Program-made: the position numbers and the translations under genes
The notes under the pieces: model-generated
What the model was told of the DNA's origin: nothing
What the model saw: only the letters and a program-made list of their open reading frames with translations
The model's database searches: none
Shown here: positions 6,395-23,475 of the stretch, piece by piece
Position numbering within the stretch: the first letter of the stretch is position 1
Layout of the letters: every line of letters begins with the position of its first letter
Origin: a virus
IMG/VR virus record: IMGVR_UViG_3300021467_000006
Location: 32,321 to 96,320 of that record
DNA length: 64,000 nt
Direction: 5' to 3' (one strand)

Positions 6395-6704
6395 TTCAAT
6401 AAAATGCCAAATAAATTATGATGGAAGATATGTAGTATTTGTCATTTATAAAGATAACAAGTCTTACGTTGGAACCGCAATTTGCAGCGTTTTGGATGTT
6501 TTTGATGAATATGAGGGTAAAAACAAAGCTGCTGGAAGAGCAGTAAAAGCATATAAAAAAGGCGAAAGCTCTGAAAAGGTTAGAAGGGATTTTTATGATT
6601 TCCCTAATGGCTGGACTGTAAGACAGGTTATAAATGTTATCAGCCATCCTTTCAGCCATAAATCTTTGGTATTAGATAAAGAAGAAGTGTATATAGGATA
6701 CTAA
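6318..6704 (+). CDS. Hypothetical phage protein, paralog of 6708..7097
   Basis: GGAGG RBS; shares GxAICSxLDxFD..G.NKA.GRA..AY and FPxxWT with the next gene. Confidence 0.75.
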   Translation: MLLKGKACFRGLGKNLREEIKKIQPDSIKCQINYDGRYVVFVIYKDNKSYVGTAICSVLDVFDEYEGKNKAAGRAVKAYKKGESSEKVRRDFYDFPNGWTVRQVINVISHPFSHKSLVLDKEEVYIGY

Positions 6705-6707
6705 ATT

Positions 6708-7097
6708 ATGTTTATTAAAATCCGAAATAAGTATTTTAAATATATAAATAAGAAGCTAAAGAAAAAATTAAAAGAGATAAATCCAGATCATGTGAATATT
6801 GGAGTTAATGGGAACATAACTACATGTGAAATATATAAAGATGGAGGCGTAGCAATAGGTTTAGCTATATGTAGTACTTTAGACATCTTTGATATGAGAA
6901 TAGGTGTTAATAAGGCTGTAGGGAGGGCTATCAGAGCTTATGTTACTAAACACCACAGTGGTAGAATAAGAAAGAGCTATGATGCCTTCCCTAAGACTTG
7001 GACGTTAGAACAGGCAAGAAACGTATTAAAGGTAGATTCTTTTTTCAAATCAAGATTTTTCAACTATATCCCAAAGGGAAGAATACCTCCCGCATAA
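6708..7097 (+). CDS. Hypothetical phage protein, paralog of 6318..6704
   Basis: Same shared motifs. Confidence 0.75.
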   Translation: MFIKIRNKYFKYINKKLKKKLKEINPDHVNIGVNGNITTCEIYKDGGVAIGLAICSTLDIFDMRIGVNKAVGRAIRAYVTKHHSGRIRKSYDAFPKTWTLEQARNVLKVDSFFKSRFFNYIPKGRIPPA

Positions 7098-7108
7098 AGG
7101 GTAGCAGT

Positions 7109-7423
7109 ATGAACTCAAAAGAATTTCATATGAGAAAGGGCAGATTTTTTATATCTACCGATCTCCTCAATGATAATAGATCTCTAAAAATTATGATTAG
7201 GGCTTTCATTTGGTTACAGTTCATACCAATTGATGTAAGATGGGATTTCATACATCATAGATTTGAATATACAGGCTATTCACCTAGATTTGAACCAATC
7301 GAGGAGGGCAGCATTATGCCTGTTTATGTATTAAAAACTAATATAATCAAAAACAAATTAAAATTTAATCTCAAAAAAATAGGTATTATTGATTTTTCTG
7401 TTGACATGAGTTTAAGTTCATAG
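7109..7423 (+). CDS. Hypothetical protein
   Basis: ORF 6998..7423; likely start at MNSKEF (7109), after the previous stop. Confidence 0.55.
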   Translation: MNSKEFHMRKGRFFISTDLLNDNRSLKIMIRAFIWLQFIPIDVRWDFIHHRFEYTGYSPRFEPIEEGSIMPVYVLKTNIIKNKLKFNLKKIGIIDFSVDMSLSS

Positions 7424-7429
7424 TATATT
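7401..7429 (+). promoter_or_regulatory. Sigma70-type promoter of the RNA cluster / DUF2828 unit
   Basis: TTGACA-17 bp-TATATT. Confidence 0.75.
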
Positions 7430-7443
7430 ATAATTCAAGTTGA

Positions 7444-7538
7444 TGGGTAGGCAAGTTCTTAACTGCCTTGGTAAAAATTTATTTGTTACATTTTTTCAGC
7501 CAATCCTAAACCTCCTGGCAGAGCCACTTGCCTACTCA
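7444..7538 (+). ncRNA. Candidate end-paired small RNA (~95 nt)
   Basis: TGGGTAGGCAAGT (7444-7456) pairs with ACTTGCCTACTCA (7526-7538), 13 bp with one G-U; begins just after the promoter. Confidence 0.5.
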
Positions 7539-7545
7539 AATATCA

Positions 7546-7597
7546 AGGTTGGTTACAGCAAACAAAATGCCATGCGGAGGCTCTAACACCAACCTGT
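7546..7597 (+). ncRNA. ACAGCAA-motif structured RNA, unit 1
   Basis: AGGTTGGT-T-ACAGCAA...ACCAACCT-GT; internal hairpin GCC-ATGCGGA-GGC. Confidence 0.7.
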
Positions 7598-7619
7598 TTT
7601 AAAAAATTATTAACAATTA

Positions 7620-7683
7620 AGGCTGACTGCAGCAAATATAATCAATGGTTTTCAGAGGTTCGATCCCTCAAAAGTCAGCCTGT
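7620..7683 (+). ncRNA. ACAGCAA-motif structured RNA, unit 2 (carries a tRNA T-arm-like hairpin)
   Basis: AGGCTGACT-GCAGCAA...AGTCAGCCT-GT; internal GAGG-TTCGATC-CCTC at 7655-7669. Confidence 0.7.
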
Positions 7684-7692
7684 AAAAAGTTA

Positions 7693-7758
7693 GCGGGAAC
7701 TGGATGGCAGATGTTTTTCTACCCGAAAAATAGGATGGTTCGATTCCATCTTCCCGCT
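7693..7758 (+). tRNA. Shrunken tRNA-Gly-like gene (ACC in the anticodon position, minimal D arm)
   Basis: Acceptor GCGGGAA/TTCCCGC with discriminator T; T arm GATGG-TTCGATT-CCATC; anticodon arm TGTTTTT-CTACCCG-AAAAATA; D hairpin CTG-GATGG-CAG; 1-nt variable region; no encoded CCA. Confidence 0.7.
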
Positions 7759-7768
7759 CTTAAAAACA

Positions 7769-7832
7769 AGGGAGGTTACAGCAAGTTCTATGCAACTTAG
7801 CCTCATAAGCTAACCAGAAAATGCCTCCCTGT
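7769..7832 (+). ncRNA. ACAGCAA-motif structured RNA, unit 3 (carries a Met/CAT anticodon-arm-like hairpin)
   Basis: AGGGAGGT-T-ACAGCAA...GCCTCCCT-GT; internal TTAGC-CTCATAA-GCTAA at 7797-7813. Confidence 0.7.
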
Positions 7833-7852
7833 TCTTATGAAAATAAAGGCCA

Positions 7853-7920
7853 AGGCTGGGTACAGCAAACTTACGCTTATATAGCATCGGACTTTCGAAC
7901 TGATCTATAACCCAGCCTGT
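7853..7920 (+). ncRNA. ACAGCAA-motif structured RNA, unit 4 (carries a Glu/TTC anticodon-loop-like hairpin)
   Basis: AGGCTGGGT-ACAGCAA...ACCCAGCCT-GT; internal TATAG-c-ATCGG-aCTTTCGAa-CTGAT-CTATA. Confidence 0.7.
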
Positions 7921-7954
7921 TTATTAACCTTTTTAACAAATAGGAGGTCTCTCC

Positions 7955-9406
7955 ATGTTTTCCAAAACCCATGAAGGTGGAACTCAGTATCCCTTCTCTT
8001 TAGATCATCATTTAGAATTCTTCTCTAAAGCAGGCTCCCTTTTTAAGAAAAGAGAATCTTTTTATGGATCTGAAGAATCAGCTCTTTCTCTTTTCCAGAA
8101 AATGTGGGTAGTAGATGAAGAGTTATCTATGAAACTGCTCTTTTGGCTGAGAGATTGCAGAGGTGGAGCTGGAAATAGATCCGGTTTTAGAGAATGTATC
8201 AATTGGTTAGCTACCTATGATCCTAGCCTGCCTTTTGATTTTCCAAATTACAAATGGGTAAAAGCCAACTTACATCTAATCCCAAAGTATGGAAGATGGG
8301 ATGACTTGAAGGCTTTATTTGGAACTACTTTGGAAGAGAAAGCTGCAAAATTCTGGGCTGAAGCTTTAAAGAAAAGAGACATTCTTGCAGCTAAATGGGC
8401 TAAAAGGCATTATAAGCCTCTTCAAAAAGCATTAAATACCAACGAAGCTAGATTAAGGAAGATGCTTTCTAGAATTAGAAAGAATCATATAGTTGAGTAC
8501 AAATTGTGCTCTAATCTCTGGAAAGAGATTGAATATCCTAAAGTACCTTCTGTAGCAATGGCAAGATATACAAATGCTTTTGCCAGGCATGATGAAGAAG
8601 GCTTCAGGAAATTCAAAGAAGACTTAAGAAAAGGAAAGGTAGAAATCAAAGCTTCTGTACTTTTCCCCCACGATTGCGTCAGAACTGTAAGAAGTGGAGA
8701 CGCAGAAATAGCAGATGCTCAGTTTGAAGCTCTTCCTAATTATCTGGATGGTAATAAAGAGCGTATTATCGTAATTTCTGATACTTCAGGATCTATGAGT
8801 ATTCGAGTATCTGGTTCTGTCAGGGCTGTAGATATCTCTATTGGAATGGCATTGTATTGCTCTGCCAAGATTCCTAAAGATAATCCTTTCCATAAGAAAT
8901 TCATTGCATTCTGCTCTGAAGGTAGTTTTAAGGATTGGAATGGAATGAAATTTTCAGAAGCAGTAACAAGTGGAGAGATATTTGATGGTGCCATAGGTGG
9001 AACTAGAATTGATAAAGCTCTTGATTTGATACTCAAAACAGCAAGATTCTTCAATCTCACTAATGAGCAAATGCCTACTTGCTTGCTTATTGTTTCGGAT
9101 ATGCAATTTCATGAAGGTTTATCACAATGGAATTGGGGCAAAAAAGACTTCACTCCCGAATTAGTACAAACAGAAGTCAATAAAGCACTAAAGAGATGGG
9201 ATAAAGCTGGGTATAAAAGACCTAAGATAATCTACTGGAATACCGCTGGTTATGCTGGGTCTCCAGAAACAGTCAGAGCTGAAAATACAGCTTTGGTATC
9301 TGGTTTTAGTCCATCTATACTTAAAGCTATTTTCTCTGCTTCAGAATTCACACCTTATACAATTATGTTAGAAGCTATCAAGAAGTATAAAATCAATAAA
9401 CCTTAA
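7955..9406 (+). CDS. DUF2828-family protein with C-terminal vWA domain (Ro60/TROVE-like architecture)
   Basis: RDCRGGAG, YGRWDDL, LAAKWA, KVPSVAM, MIDAS DTSGSM, SDMQF, IYWN and VSGFSP motifs; AGGAGG RBS. Confidence 0.85.
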   Translation: MFSKTHEGGTQYPFSLDHHLEFFSKAGSLFKKRESFYGSEESALSLFQKMWVVDEELSMKLLFWLRDCRGGAGNRSGFRECINWLATYDPSLPFDFPNYKWVKANLHLIPKYGRWDDLKALFGTTLEEKAAKFWAEALKKRDILAAKWAKRHYKPLQKALNTNEARLRKMLSRIRKNHIVEYKLCSNLWKEIEYPKVPSVAMARYTNAFARHDEEGFRKFKEDLRKGKVEIKASVLFPHDCVRTVRSGDAEIADAQFEALPNYLDGNKERIIVISDTSGSMSIRVSGSVRAVDISIGMALYCSAKIPKDNPFHKKFIAFCSEGSFKDWNGMKFSEAVTSGEIFDGAIGGTRIDKALDLILKTARFFNLTNEQMPTCLLIVSDMQFHEGLSQWNWGKKDFTPELVQTEVNKALKRWDKAGYKRPKIIYWNTAGYAGSPETVRAENTALVSGFSPSILKAIFSASEFTPYTIMLEAIKKYKINKP

Positions 9407-22963: not shown

Positions 22964-23030
22964 TGGAGCGGGTTGCAGGAACTGCCCCTGCTCATCCCGT
23001 TGGTTAGGGATGCTCGCTGACCGAACCCGC
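22964..23030 (-). tRNA. Second shrunken tRNA-Gly-like gene, with encoded CCA
   Basis: GCGGGTT-CGGTCAGCGAG-CATCCC-TAACCAAC-GGGATG-A-GCAGG-GGCAGTT-CCTGC-AACCCGC-T-CCA. Confidence 0.7.
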
Positions 23031-23042
23031 TTCTATCTTATA

Positions 23043-23450
23043 CTATGCAGAAAGATCAATTTTTACCCACCCAGTGATTAATTTAGGATGAACATAAGTT
23101 ACTTTTACTTCATCCTTTCCTTGCAAATTTACAAAATATACATATCCAATTCTATTTGGTTTCCAAATTTTACCAAGCAAATCACAAGCCTCTATTTCAA
23201 GGAGTCCTATAAAATTACCACCATACTTTGCATAACTAATAGCCATGTTAAAATCATCCGTCAGATAGACGTGTAAATGCTTTAACTTTGCTTGGACATA
23301 TTCAGAAATTCTCTTCTTAAATTTACATTTTAGTTGGCCACAAAAAGAATACTTCTCTATTACATTATTTATGGTTTGTTTCACATCAATTGGTTTTAAA
23401 CCAGTAATTAAAACTTCATTAGGAGAAATTTTTGTTCCATGATATAGCAT
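23043..23450 (-). CDS. ADP-ribosyltransferase-fold protein (Tpt1/KptA- or ART-like)
   Basis: LYHGT...GLKP...HVYLTDDFNMAISYA...YVYFVN; likely start at ATG 23450. Confidence 0.55.
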   Translation of the reverse strand: MLYHGTKISPNEVLITGLKPIDVKQTINNVIEKYSFCGQLKCKFKKRISEYVQAKLKHLHVYLTDDFNMAISYAKYGGNFIGLLEIEACDLLGKIWKPNRIGYVYFVNLQGKDEVKVTYVHPKLITGWVKIDLSA

Positions 23451-23475
23451 TAGAATGCTCACCAACCGAACCCGC
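23450..23475 (-). repeat. Diverged copy of the 5' half of the tRNA-like gene at 22964-23030
   Basis: GCGGGTTCGGTTGGTGAGCATTCTAA versus GCGGGTTCGGTCAGCGAGCATCCCTAA. Confidence 0.75.

What the first reader, a model, noticed from the sequence alone, without database searches (positions are those of the whole stretch)
7546..7920. Each ACAGCAA unit displays a different isolated tRNA arm: possible tRNA-decoy cassettes
Seen: unit 3 carries a perfect 5-bp/7-nt anticodon arm, TTAGC-CT CAT AA-GCTAA (Met). Unit 4 carries a long hairpin capped by CT TTC GA (Glu-like loop). Unit 2 carries a T arm, GAGG-TTCGATC-CCTC. Unit 1 has a weaker GCC-AT GCG GA-GGC loop. Established: several anti-phage and toxin nucleases (PrrC, RloC, VapC, PARIS AriB) cut tRNA anticodon loops, and phages counter them with their own tRNAs or repair enzymes. 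Inference: a constant scaffold with swappable tRNA-fragment cargo could act as decoys for tRNA-targeting nucleases or synthetases, or as guides for the DUF2828 protein. They could instead be relics of decayed tRNA genes.
Basis: partly seen in the sequence, partly recalled or inferred. Interest (0 to 1): 0.85.

Follow-up and report, generated by a model that had tools for sequence, protein, structure and literature searches.

The report
Phage Ro60-like RNAs displaying tRNA arms
Four small RNA genes in front of a phage gene for a Ro60-shaped protein share one conserved "handle" and each hold out a piece that looks like part of a tRNA; this design recurs far above chance in related phages, but whether the pieces act as baits for tRNA-cutting enzymes is untested.

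Summary
Window 7546-7920 contains four units of one build: aAGG-stem, (U/A)CAGCAA, variable insert, stem-CCU, GU. A covariance model trained only on other phages finds exactly these four (E 1e-9 to 1e-6).

- Unit 3 carries a textbook anticodon arm (5 bp, loop CU-CAU-AA).
- Unit 2 carries a T arm (GAGG-UUCGAUC-CCUC).
- Unit 4 carries an anticodon-like loop whose closing pair is A.A in this strain.
- Unit 1 carries only a 3-bp hairpin.

In 292 unique homologous units, 59 inserts hold a perfect anticodon-type arm. Shuffled inserts give 3.8 and native control segments give 10. T arms number 40, against 0.2 and 2.2.

The downstream DUF2828 protein folds like Ro60 (Z 21, 409 residues aligned). The handle travels with its gene: 355 units on the gene strand, 2 on the other. 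The best reading is Y-RNA-like partner RNAs of a Ro60-like ring that display tRNA parts.

The decoy role is plausible but unshown; no RNA data exist for this phage. The units are not members of YrlA or of Dictyostelium Class I RNA (RF01414, 13 bits against a cut-off of 41.5), though the build matches Class I closely.

This scan has made the same reading many times on other DNA (272 notes). I found no paper or Rfam family that covers it.

The parts
7401..7429 (+). sigma-70-like promoter (TTGACA, 17 nt, TATATT) in front of the RNA array
   Evidence: Consensus scan gives 11 of 12 matches. The sequence is conserved in L002, L037 and L038. Activity is inferred.
7444..7538 (+). 95-nt leader hairpin of unknown kind with a 12-bp outer stem; it has no CAGCAA handle
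   Evidence: Fold z-score -2.9. Three substitutions in L002 keep the pairing. It is absent from L038 and found only in close relatives. No Rfam match.
7546..7597 (+). Unit 1: handle AGGTTGGT/ACCAACCT plus taCAGCAA. The insert holds a 3-bp hairpin GCC-ATGCGGA-GGC (7569-7581).
   Evidence: R1 43.9 bits, E 1e-9.
7620..7683 (+). Unit 2: handle AGGCTGACT/AGTCAGCCT plus gCAGCAA. The insert ends in a T arm GAGG-TTCGATC-CCTC (7655-7669).
   Evidence: R1 42.0 bits, E 3e-9. The handle stem has two compensatory double changes against L038 and L002.
7693..7759 (+). Free-standing 67-nt tRNA-like gene. It has a 7-bp acceptor stem, a short D arm, the loop CUACCCG and a canonical T arm. It has no handle and no encoded CCA.
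   Evidence: ARAGORN calls tRNA-Gly(ACC). The best Rfam tRNA-clan score is 22.5 bits, below threshold. Fold z-score -2.4. Conserved in relatives.
7769..7832 (+). Unit 3: handle AGGGAGGT/GCCTCCCT plus taCAGCAA. The insert carries the anticodon-type arm TTAGC-CTCATAA-GCTAA (7797-7813).
   Evidence: R1 33.0 bits, E 1e-6, with the arm aligned to the model's hairpin. The arm is invariant in four strains.
7853..7920 (+). Unit 4: handle AGGCTGGGT/ACCCAGCCT plus aCAGCAA. The insert is a long hairpin capped by CTTTCGA (7892-7898). A second allele, CTTTGGA, occurs in relatives.
   Evidence: R1 35.0 bits, E 3e-7. Fold z-score -3.6. Allelic changes cluster at 7889-7910.
7955..9406 (+). Gene for a 483-aa DUF2828 + DUF7788 protein with a Ro60-like fold: an alpha-helical ring plus a vWA domain with a conserved DxSxS motif.
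   Evidence: Pfam. PHROG 850, 'RNA-binding protein'. AlphaFold model with pLDDT 84. Foldseek: the top 13 hits are all Ro60. VIA-align: Z 21.2 over 409 residues. D276, S278 and S280 are invariant.

Best explanation
The four units are genes for small RNAs of about 50-70 nt. They belong to a widespread, uncatalogued family that plays the part of Y RNAs for the Ro60-shaped DUF2828 protein encoded just downstream.

The constant part is a 7-10-bp stem that joins the two ends, the single-stranded (U/A)CAGCAA next to its 5' strand, and the terminal CUGU. This part is most likely the docking site for the protein ring.

The variable insert is the working end. In many members, including units 2, 3 and 4 here, it is shaped like one arm of a tRNA. 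It probably engages proteins that recognise tRNA: anticodon nucleases, modification enzymes or repair enzymes.

The array is probably transcribed from the promoter at 7401-7429 and cut into single RNAs.

Shown here:
- the family, its structure and its linkage to the gene;
- the Ro60 fold of the protein;
- the enrichment and covariation of the tRNA-type arms.

Inferred: that the RNAs are expressed and processed, that the protein binds the handle, and what the arms bind.
For: Family and structure:
- Strict units number 355 on the gene strand and 2 on the opposite strand in 975 kb around DUF2828 genes.
- 334 of 647 CAGCAA words sit in such units. Non-overlapping permutations of the word give at most 16.
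- Handle stems use 166 different sequences.
- Model R1 finds only the four window units.

Linkage tested from the RNA side:
- A handle-only pattern found 43 viral stretches.
- 28 of them lie in contigs with a DUF2828 gene.
- The other 15 lie in records CheckV rates 5-57% complete.

Protein:
- Foldseek's top 13 PDB hits are all Ro60 (probability 1.0), led by the Thermus phage phiLo Ro60.
- VIA-align gives Z 21.2 over 409 aligned residues to Xenopus Ro60 bound to RNA. vWA-only hits follow at Z about 10.
- The phiLo Ro60 binds two Y-like RNAs encoded upstream of its gene (PMC12135203).

Cargo:
- Perfect anticodon-type arms occur in 59 of 292 inserts, against 3.8 in shuffles and 10.0 in native segments.
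- T arms occur in 40, against 0.16 and 2.2.
- 7-nt loops make up 133 of 403 predicted hairpins, against 19 of 242 in shuffles.
- In 47 short units chosen on the handle alone, the 5-bp helix is 71.6% paired. Shuffles give 42% and slid controls 31-41%. The covariation score is 0.60 against 0.17, reached by 0 of 500 shuffles.
- Loops read C32 (44 of 51), U33, A37 (45 of 51) and A38 (43 of 51; this position was not constrained). A34 is depleted (10 of 51, p 0.007).

Context:
- 253 of 255 ARAGORN tRNA calls near these genes lie on the same strand.
- Among DUF2828 phage records at least 90% complete, 6 of 12 encode RtcB and 9 of 12 a PF09414 RNA ligase.
- RtcB lies within 3-7 kb of the DUF2828 gene in 4 of the 7 records that have it.
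- This recalls the Salmonella rsr-yrlBA-rtcBA operon (established knowledge).
Against: - No member has been shown to bind the protein.
- No sequence-level link to TROVE exists: none of 35 family members hits PF05731 even at E 5, and PDB sequence searches are empty.
- The Ro60-binding motifs of known Y RNAs (GGUCCGA; GNCGAA) are absent, and no Rfam Y-RNA model matches.
- About half of the inserts show no tRNA-type arm, so tRNA mimicry is not a defining feature of the family.
- This phage has no RtcB or PF09414 ligase.
- Baseline frequencies of RNA ligases in large phages were not measured.
- Related loci are not phylogenetically independent, so the enrichment factors are inflated to an unknown degree.
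Confidence: 0.7

Rival explanations
1. Bait or decoy. The displayed anticodon arms and T arms are competitive substrates or inhibitors for host tRNA-targeting defence nucleases such as PrrC, RloC, VapC-type enzymes, colicin-like enzymes and PARIS AriB. They protect the tRNA pool during infection. The DUF2828 ring stabilises or presents the baits. This is a specific version of the best explanation, not an exclusive rival.
For: - Anticodon-type arms are enriched and covary.
- The same stem frame occurs with different triplets. UUAGA/UCUAA carries AUU, CAU, GCU, GUU and UGA. UUUGA/UCAAA carries AUA, GUA, UGA and AGG.
- Near-identical units differ in the triplet. L013 and L120 read AUC and AUA. 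L091 reads GAA where L092 and L102 read GCA.
- In this phage, unit 4 has two alleles across vent samples, UUC and UUG. Seven of the differences across the array cluster in 22 nt of that arm.
- Many complete DUF2828 phages also carry RNA ligases.
Against: - There is no experiment of any kind.
- The paired comparison of related units yielded only 8 usable pairs and no significant excess of change in the triplet.
- The commonest triplets (UGA, GUU, CAU, GAU, GCU) are not those of the best-known anticodon nucleases (Lys UUU for PrrC and PARIS, from established knowledge).
- The stems are AU-rich and stylised rather than copies of host tRNA arms.
- Many nucleases need modified bases that a mimic may lack.
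- Half of the units carry no arm.
Confidence: 0.25
2. Cis-acting leader. The units are not separate RNAs. They are protein-binding sites in the 5' untranslated region of the DUF2828 mRNA, through which the protein regulates its own synthesis.
For: All four window units lie between one promoter-like site and the gene, on its strand. No strong terminator was called between them.
Against: - In other phages, units also lie downstream of the gene, kilobases away, and among tRNA genes.
- Handle-pattern hits occur away from the gene.
- Diverse structured inserts with covarying arms are not needed for an operator.
- Dictyostelium Class I RNAs of the same build are free 42-65-nt RNAs (PMC7919456).
Confidence: 0.08
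3. Relics or variants of tRNA genes. The units are decaying tRNA genes, or minimal 'armless' tRNAs or precursors that still work in translation.
For: - The order of parts is that of a tRNA: a closing stem of 7-8 bp, then the anticodon-type arm, then a T arm where present.
- Some long units hold a whole, circularly permuted tRNA body (L129).
- DUF2828 genes often sit in tRNA arrays.
Against: - The handle motif and the CUGU end are conserved across very distant phages.
- No unit ends in CCA.
- ARAGORN calls no tRNA inside any unit.
- Arms keep perfect stems through compensatory change. That is selection, not decay.
- An origin from tRNA remains likely. A present-day role as a tRNA does not.
Confidence: 0.04

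Closest known systems
Ro60 (Rsr, TROVE2) with Y RNAs. The closest cases are bacterial and phage YrlA/YrlB (Chen et al. 2014, PMC4201824) and Thermus phage phiLo Ro60 with Yrl1/Yrl2 (PMC12135203; PDB 9L5Y, 9KOP).
   Same: - The protein is a ring of helical repeats closed by a vWA domain.
- Several small RNAs are encoded beside its gene.
- Each RNA has a stem joining its two ends, a short conserved single-stranded motif on the 5' side of that stem, and a variable module.
- The module mimics tRNA (YrlA has T arm, D arm and acceptor-like stem).
- Phage versions exist.
- There is a recurrent neighbourhood with RtcB.
   Different: - There is no detectable sequence similarity to TROVE.
- The handle motif is (U/A)CAGCAA with a CUGU end, not GGUCCGA or GNCGAA.
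- No Rfam Y-RNA model matches.
- Many members display a bare anticodon-type arm with a free choice of triplet, which to my knowledge YrlA does not.
- Up to four units occur per locus here, and more elsewhere.
Class I RNAs of dictyostelid social amoebae (Rfam RF01414; Kjellin et al. 2021, PMC7919456).
   Same: The build is the same, as the paper describes it:
- the RNAs start at AAG;
[quoted passage not shown]
- an 11-nt motif lies next to the 5' strand, with C, C, A, A fixed at positions 6, 9, 10 and 11 (here CAGCAA);
- the rest is variable;
- the RNAs end in CUGU;
- they are about 60 nt long.
   Different: - Only unit 1 touches the RF01414 model. It scores 13.3 bits (E 0.85) against a cut-off of 41.5.
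- The fixed U is at motif position 4 here (260 of 292) rather than position 3.
- The stem is 7-10 bp, not 6.
- Class I RNAs are reported as unique to Dictyostelia and bound by the RRM protein Rnp1A.
- No tRNA-like inserts are described for them.
- Whether dictyostelids have a DUF2828 protein was not checked here.
Phage-encoded tRNAs that resist or replace tRNAs cut by host anticodon nucleases, and T4 Pnk/Rnl1 repair of PrrC damage (established knowledge, not tested here).
   Same: These are phage RNA genes, in or near tRNA arrays, whose relevant part is the anticodon loop. They are linked to RNA ligases.
   Different: The units are not tRNAs. They lack an acceptor end with CCA, and most carry a single arm on a foreign scaffold.

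Membership tests
Ro60/TROVE protein family (for the DUF2828 protein) | Ring of HEAT-like helical repeats closed by a vWA domain (the Ro60 fold) | tested here: met
   The AlphaFold model has pLDDT 84. Foldseek's top 13 hits are all Ro60. VIA-align gives Z 21.2, rmsd 4.2 and 409 aligned residues against 1yvp_A.
Ro60/TROVE protein family (for the DUF2828 protein) | Match to the Pfam TROVE domain (PF05731) | tested here: not met
   None of 35 family members matches it at E up to 5. All 35 match DUF2828 and DUF7788.
Ro60/TROVE protein family (for the DUF2828 protein) | vWA domain with a MIDAS motif (DxSxS ... T ... D) | tested here: met
   D276, S278, S280, T350 and D382 are invariant in 35 sequences. 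The vWA fold matches at Z 9-10.
Ro60/TROVE protein family (for the DUF2828 protein) | Binds Y-type RNAs on the outer face of the ring | not testable with these tools
   Only genomic linkage of the handle RNAs with the gene is shown.
Y RNAs (Rfam Y_RNA, YrlA and relatives) | Score above the family's Rfam gathering threshold | tested here: not met
   No Y-RNA family appears even at E up to 10 over 6500-9000.
Y RNAs (Rfam Y_RNA, YrlA and relatives) | Ro60-binding motif GGUCCGA or GNCGAA(N)G on the 5' strand of the terminal stem | tested here: not met
   The units carry (U/A)CAGCAA at that place. The known motifs are as quoted in PMC4201824.
Y RNAs (Rfam Y_RNA, YrlA and relatives) | Terminal stem joining the 5' and 3' ends plus a variable effector module, encoded next to the Ro60 gene | tested here: met
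Dictyostelium Class I RNA (RF01414) | Score above the gathering threshold of 41.5 bits | tested here: not met
   The best unit (U1) scores 13.3 bits, E 0.85. An unrelated site scores higher.
Dictyostelium Class I RNA (RF01414) | AAG start, short covarying terminal stem, 11-nt motif ending CAGCAA, variable rest, CUGU end | tested here: met
   A precedes the stem in 274 of 292 units. The motif region, the CCU-G(U/A) end and 166 different stems are. The family's features are as described in PMC7919456.
tRNA | Cloverleaf with acceptor end, recognised by tRNA finders or the Rfam tRNA model | tested here: not met
   ARAGORN calls no tRNA inside any unit. In the window it calls only the free-standing element at 7693-7759, which is itself below the Rfam threshold.

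The most novel reading that the evidence does not exclude
The CAGCAA-handle RNAs are a programmable display system. A Ro60-like ring holds a constant handle, and the RNA presents a bare anticodon arm whose three 'anticodon' letters are swapped freely to bait anticodon-specific host nucleases or other readers of tRNA.

The same handle in Dictyostelium Class I RNAs would then mark an ancient second branch of the Ro60/Y-RNA particle, spanning phages, bacteria and eukaryotes. It would give the large DUF2828 family its function.
Probability: 0.2. Interest if true: 0.9.

Novelty: new variant of a known kind. Interest (0 to 1): 0.78.

Why it matters
DUF2828 is a very large family without a function. 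More than 3,400 relatives scored E of 0.001 or better among the 8,000 candidates examined. The family occurs in phages, bacteria and, according to Pfam, eukaryotes.

A conserved RNA partner would turn it into a testable ribonucleoprotein of the Ro60/Y-RNA kind. Inserts shaped like single tRNA arms point to the contest over tRNA between phages and bacterial defence nucleases. In that contest, RNA baits built on a protein-held scaffold are, to my knowledge, not described.

The handle shares its build with the Class I RNAs of social amoebae. Their molecular role is unknown, and they are reported as unique to that group. The resemblance offers a new lead for that question.

The claim is limited. 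Everything beyond sequence, structure prediction and co-occurrence is inference.

Tried and rejected
- Phage DNA search: a blastn of 7400-9406 against the annotated phage collection found no match.
- PDB sequence searches with the protein and with its profile found nothing meaningful. The weak RNase H hits (E at best 0.024) are not supported by the fold.
- RNA evidence: no RNA holder is listed among public runs for this stretch, so expression and RNA ends could not be examined.
- DNA contigs laid on the region gave allele information only.
- Substitution test: I compared rates by region between closely related units, looking for faster change in the triplet. Only 8 pairs of equal length qualified and nothing was significant.
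- Whole tRNAs inside units: ARAGORN found none in my set. By eye, L129 holds a permuted tRNA body.
- A hidden fifth unit was sought in the leader hairpin 7444-7538 and in the rest of the 96-kb genome. None was found.
- Literature: a search for DUF2828 gave 5 unrelated papers. Searches on anticodon-nuclease decoys and on TROVE, vWA and phage gave nothing that describes these RNAs.
- Kissing idea, considered and dropped: the loops could pair with tRNA anticodons. The complementary anticodons would mostly start with A34, which bacteria hardly use (my reasoning).

Full report
**What is there**

The window is the right two thirds of a 96-kb phage genome with terminal repeats, from hydrothermal-vent metagenomes. 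Between a strong sigma-70-like promoter site (7401-7429) and a 483-codon gene (7955-9406) lie about 520 nt without a plausible coding frame. They hold, in order:
- a 95-nt hairpin (7444-7538);
- unit 1 (7546-7597) and unit 2 (7620-7683);
- a free-standing tRNA-like gene (7693-7759; ARAGORN calls Gly-ACC);
- unit 3 (7769-7832) and unit 4 (7853-7920).

Each unit reads a-AGG...stem, then 0-3 nt, then CAGCAA, a variable insert of 26-41 nt, the complementary stem ending CCU, and then GU. No Rfam family matches the units even at E 10.

**Checking the four inserts**

- Unit 3 is a perfect 5-bp stem with the 7-nt loop CUCAUAA. It is identical in three related strains.
- Unit 2 ends in GAGG-UUCGAUC-CCUC, a T arm. 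L038 keeps it with a compensated stem (CAGG/CCUG). In L002 it has decayed to UCCGACU.
- Unit 4 folds into a 5+5-bp hairpin (z -3.6). Read as a 7-nt loop, CUUUCGA is closed by A.A in this strain. L037 (97% protein identity), L038, L002 and contigs from two other vent samples carry CUUUGGA on a perfect stem. Seven of the differences in the whole array cluster at 7889-7910.
- Unit 1 has only a 3-bp stem around AUGCGGA, supported by one compensatory change.

**Is it a family?**

I fetched 175 loci around relatives of the gene from viral, metagenome and genome collections. I scanned them with a simple rule: CAGCAA, a stem of at least 7 bp around it, A at the 5' end, and U then G at the 3' end.
- 355 units lie on the gene strand and 2 on the other strand, in 975 kb. 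292 are unique.
- Of 647 CAGCAA words on that strand, 334 sit in such a unit. The 59 other orderings of the same letters give at most 16, unless they overlap the true word.
- Positions that the rule does not fix are conserved. A precedes the stem in 274 of 292 units. U lies two before CAGCAA in 260 of 292. An A-rich run follows.
- The stems use 166 different sequences.
- A covariance model from 47 short units, none from this phage or its close relatives, finds exactly the four window units in 64 kb. Their E-values are 1e-9 to 1e-6; the next hit has E about 1.

**Linkage to the protein**

I also searched from the RNA side. A handle-only pattern found 43 viral stretches. 28 of them lie in contigs that encode the protein. 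The other 15 lie in records rated 5-57% complete.

The protein matches Pfam DUF2828 and DUF7788 and PHROG 850, labelled 'RNA-binding protein'. It has no sequence match to TROVE or to any solved structure.

Its AlphaFold model (pLDDT 84) matches Ro60 and nothing else over its full length:
- Foldseek's top 13 hits are all Ro60, led by the Thermus phage phiLo protein.
- VIA-align gives Z 21.2 with 409 aligned residues to Xenopus Ro60 bound to RNA. vWA-only hits follow at Z about 10.
- The MIDAS residues of the vWA domain are invariant.

The phiLo Ro60 binds two Y-like RNAs encoded just upstream of its gene (PMC12135203). That is the same layout as here.

I looked in the 292 unique inserts for tRNA-type arms.
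- Predicted hairpins: 7-nt loops are 133 of 403, against 19 of 242 in shuffled inserts.
- Explicit search for a perfect 5-bp stem with a 7-nt loop: 59 inserts carry an anticodon-type loop (Y-U-NNN-R-N, T loops excluded). Shuffles give 3.8 (maximum 13). Random native segments of equal length from the same loci give 10.0 (maximum 17).
- 40 inserts carry a T arm (UUCRA loop), against 0.16 and 2.2.
- The 51 distinct anticodon-type arms read C32 in 44, A37 in 45 and A38 in 43. Position 38 was not constrained by the search. A is rare at position 34 (10 of 51, p 0.007 against insert composition), as in real bacterial tRNAs.
- In short units the arm sits 6-19 nt (median 10) after CAGCAA and 2-15 nt (median 9) before the 3' stem.
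- In the alignment of 47 short units, chosen on the handle alone, the arm falls in one register. Its five pairs are 71.6% paired, against 42% in shuffles and 31-41% in slid controls. All five pairs show changes on both sides. The covariation score is 0.60 against 0.17, reached by 0 of 500 shuffles.

The cargo is therefore not random, and the stated refutation fails.

There are limits. 148 of 292 inserts show neither arm, even when only 4 of the 5 stem pairs are required. Related loci are not independent samples.

**What the arms look like**

At least 29 different triplets occur. UGA, GUU, CAU, GAU and GCU are the commonest.

The stems are AU-rich and recur. UUAGA/UCUAA and UUUGA/UCAAA each appear with several different triplets.

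Some near-identical units differ in the triplet:
- L013 and L120 read AUC and AUA.
- L091 reads GAA where L092 and L102 read GCA.
- Unit 4 here reads UUC or UUG.

These cases suggest that the triplet is the free variable. A paired test had only 8 usable pairs and showed nothing significant, so this stays anecdotal.

T arms usually lie 45-63 nt before the 3' stem. At least one long unit (L129) holds a whole tRNA body in permuted order: anticodon arm, T arm, closed acceptor stem, then D arm. This recalls YrlA. Unit 2 of the window is the rarer kind, with the T arm right at the 3' stem.

**Mechanism**

The best-supported reading is a Ro60/Y-RNA-type particle. The ring protein holds the handle. 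The insert engages something that recognises tRNA.

Context fits RNA damage and repair:
- These genes commonly sit in phage tRNA arrays; 253 of 255 tRNA calls lie on the same strand.
- Among DUF2828 phage records at least 90% complete, 6 of 12 encode RtcB and 9 of 12 a PF09414 RNA ligase.
- RtcB lies 3-7 kb from the gene in 4 of the 7 records that have it.
- This resembles the Salmonella rsr-yrlBA-rtcBA operon (established knowledge).

This phage itself has neither ligase, and its only tRNA-like gene called by ARAGORN is the one in the array.

The decoy idea is a reasonable special case and I give it about one chance in four. Nothing here tests it. The commonest triplets are not those of the classic anticodon nucleases.

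A purely cis-acting leader is unlikely, and so are tRNA relics. Units occur downstream of the gene and far from it. They end in CUGU, not CCA. Their arms are maintained by compensatory change.

**Comparison with what is known**

By fold and layout this is a Ro60/Y-RNA system. By sequence it is not a member. The protein lacks a TROVE match. The RNAs lack the GGUCCGA or GNCGAA motif (PMC4201824) and match no Rfam Y-RNA model.

The handle has the build of Dictyostelium Class I RNAs: an AAG start, a short covarying stem, an 11-nt motif with C6, C9, A10 and A11 fixed, a variable rest and a CUGU end (PMC7919456). The Rfam model RF01414 gives only 13.3 bits for unit 1 against a cut-off of 41.5. So this is resemblance, not membership.

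I found no paper on these phage RNAs.

This scan has reached the same reading many times on other genomes: 272 notes hold the search words, and several of them are on the anticodon-arm display. I took the Class I lead and the RF01414 accession from those notes and tested both here.

**Verdict**

The scaffold-plus-tRNA-arm design is real and general. The partner protein is Ro60-like. The bait function is open.

Noticed in passing
window 7444-7538 (+): A 95-nt hairpin lies directly after the promoter and before unit 1, with a 12-bp outer stem. Three substitutions in L002 all keep the pairing. It is absent from L038, which otherwise has the same array. It occurs only in close relatives and has no Rfam match or CAGCAA handle. 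A contig in run X5 shows a variant with a similar core and a different outer stem.
   Followed up: partly
window 7693-7759 (+): A compact 67-nt tRNA-like gene lies between units 2 and 3. It has a 7-bp acceptor stem, a 3-bp D stem, the loop CUACCCG (ACC at the anticodon place, C at position 37), a canonical T arm and no encoded CCA. ARAGORN calls Gly(ACC); the best Rfam tRNA-clan score is 22.5 bits, below threshold. In L038 the loop reads CUACCAG. It is the only tRNA call in the 96-kb genome.
   Followed up: partly
window 22964-23030 (-) and about 23450-23475 (-): A second tRNA-like element on the other strand begins GCGGGTT and ends AACCCGC-T-CCA. A partial copy of its 5' half lies about 450 nt upstream. 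I only read the sequence. ARAGORN does not call it.
   Followed up: partly
window 7889-7910: Two alleles of the unit 4 arm coexist in hydrothermal-vent samples. One is CUUUCGA with an A.A closing pair (this genome and run X2). The other is CUUUGGA on a perfect stem (runs X4 and X5; L037, L038, L002). The differences are clustered, while the rest of the array is nearly identical.
   Followed up: partly
L001:2690-2930: In a related phage the units are interleaved with four or five copies of another short repeat: GCGAGCCA, 8-10 nt, then AAGACACCC. I did not analyse it.
   Followed up: no
L129 (unit with a 104-nt insert) and L015:6054-6170: Long units hold a whole tRNA-like body. In L129 the order is anticodon arm, 5-nt variable loop, T arm, acceptor stem closed by a loop, then D arm. 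This is a circularly permuted tRNA opened between the D arm and the anticodon arm and clamped by the handle.
   Followed up: partly
contigs of L003, L017, L018, L031 (handles G021, G029, G030, G040): An RtcB RNA ligase gene lies 3-7 kb from the DUF2828 gene in four large phages. In the contig of L003 it is on the same strand, about 2.6 kb away.
   Followed up: partly
L016:2389-2471: One unit's insert consists largely of tandem copies of TTTTTCAA instead of a structured arm.
   Followed up: no
window 6632-6665 (-): A sub-threshold match to the Rfam ssnA RNA motif (22.7 bits against a cut-off of 37.3, E 0.006). It is probably chance.
   Followed up: no
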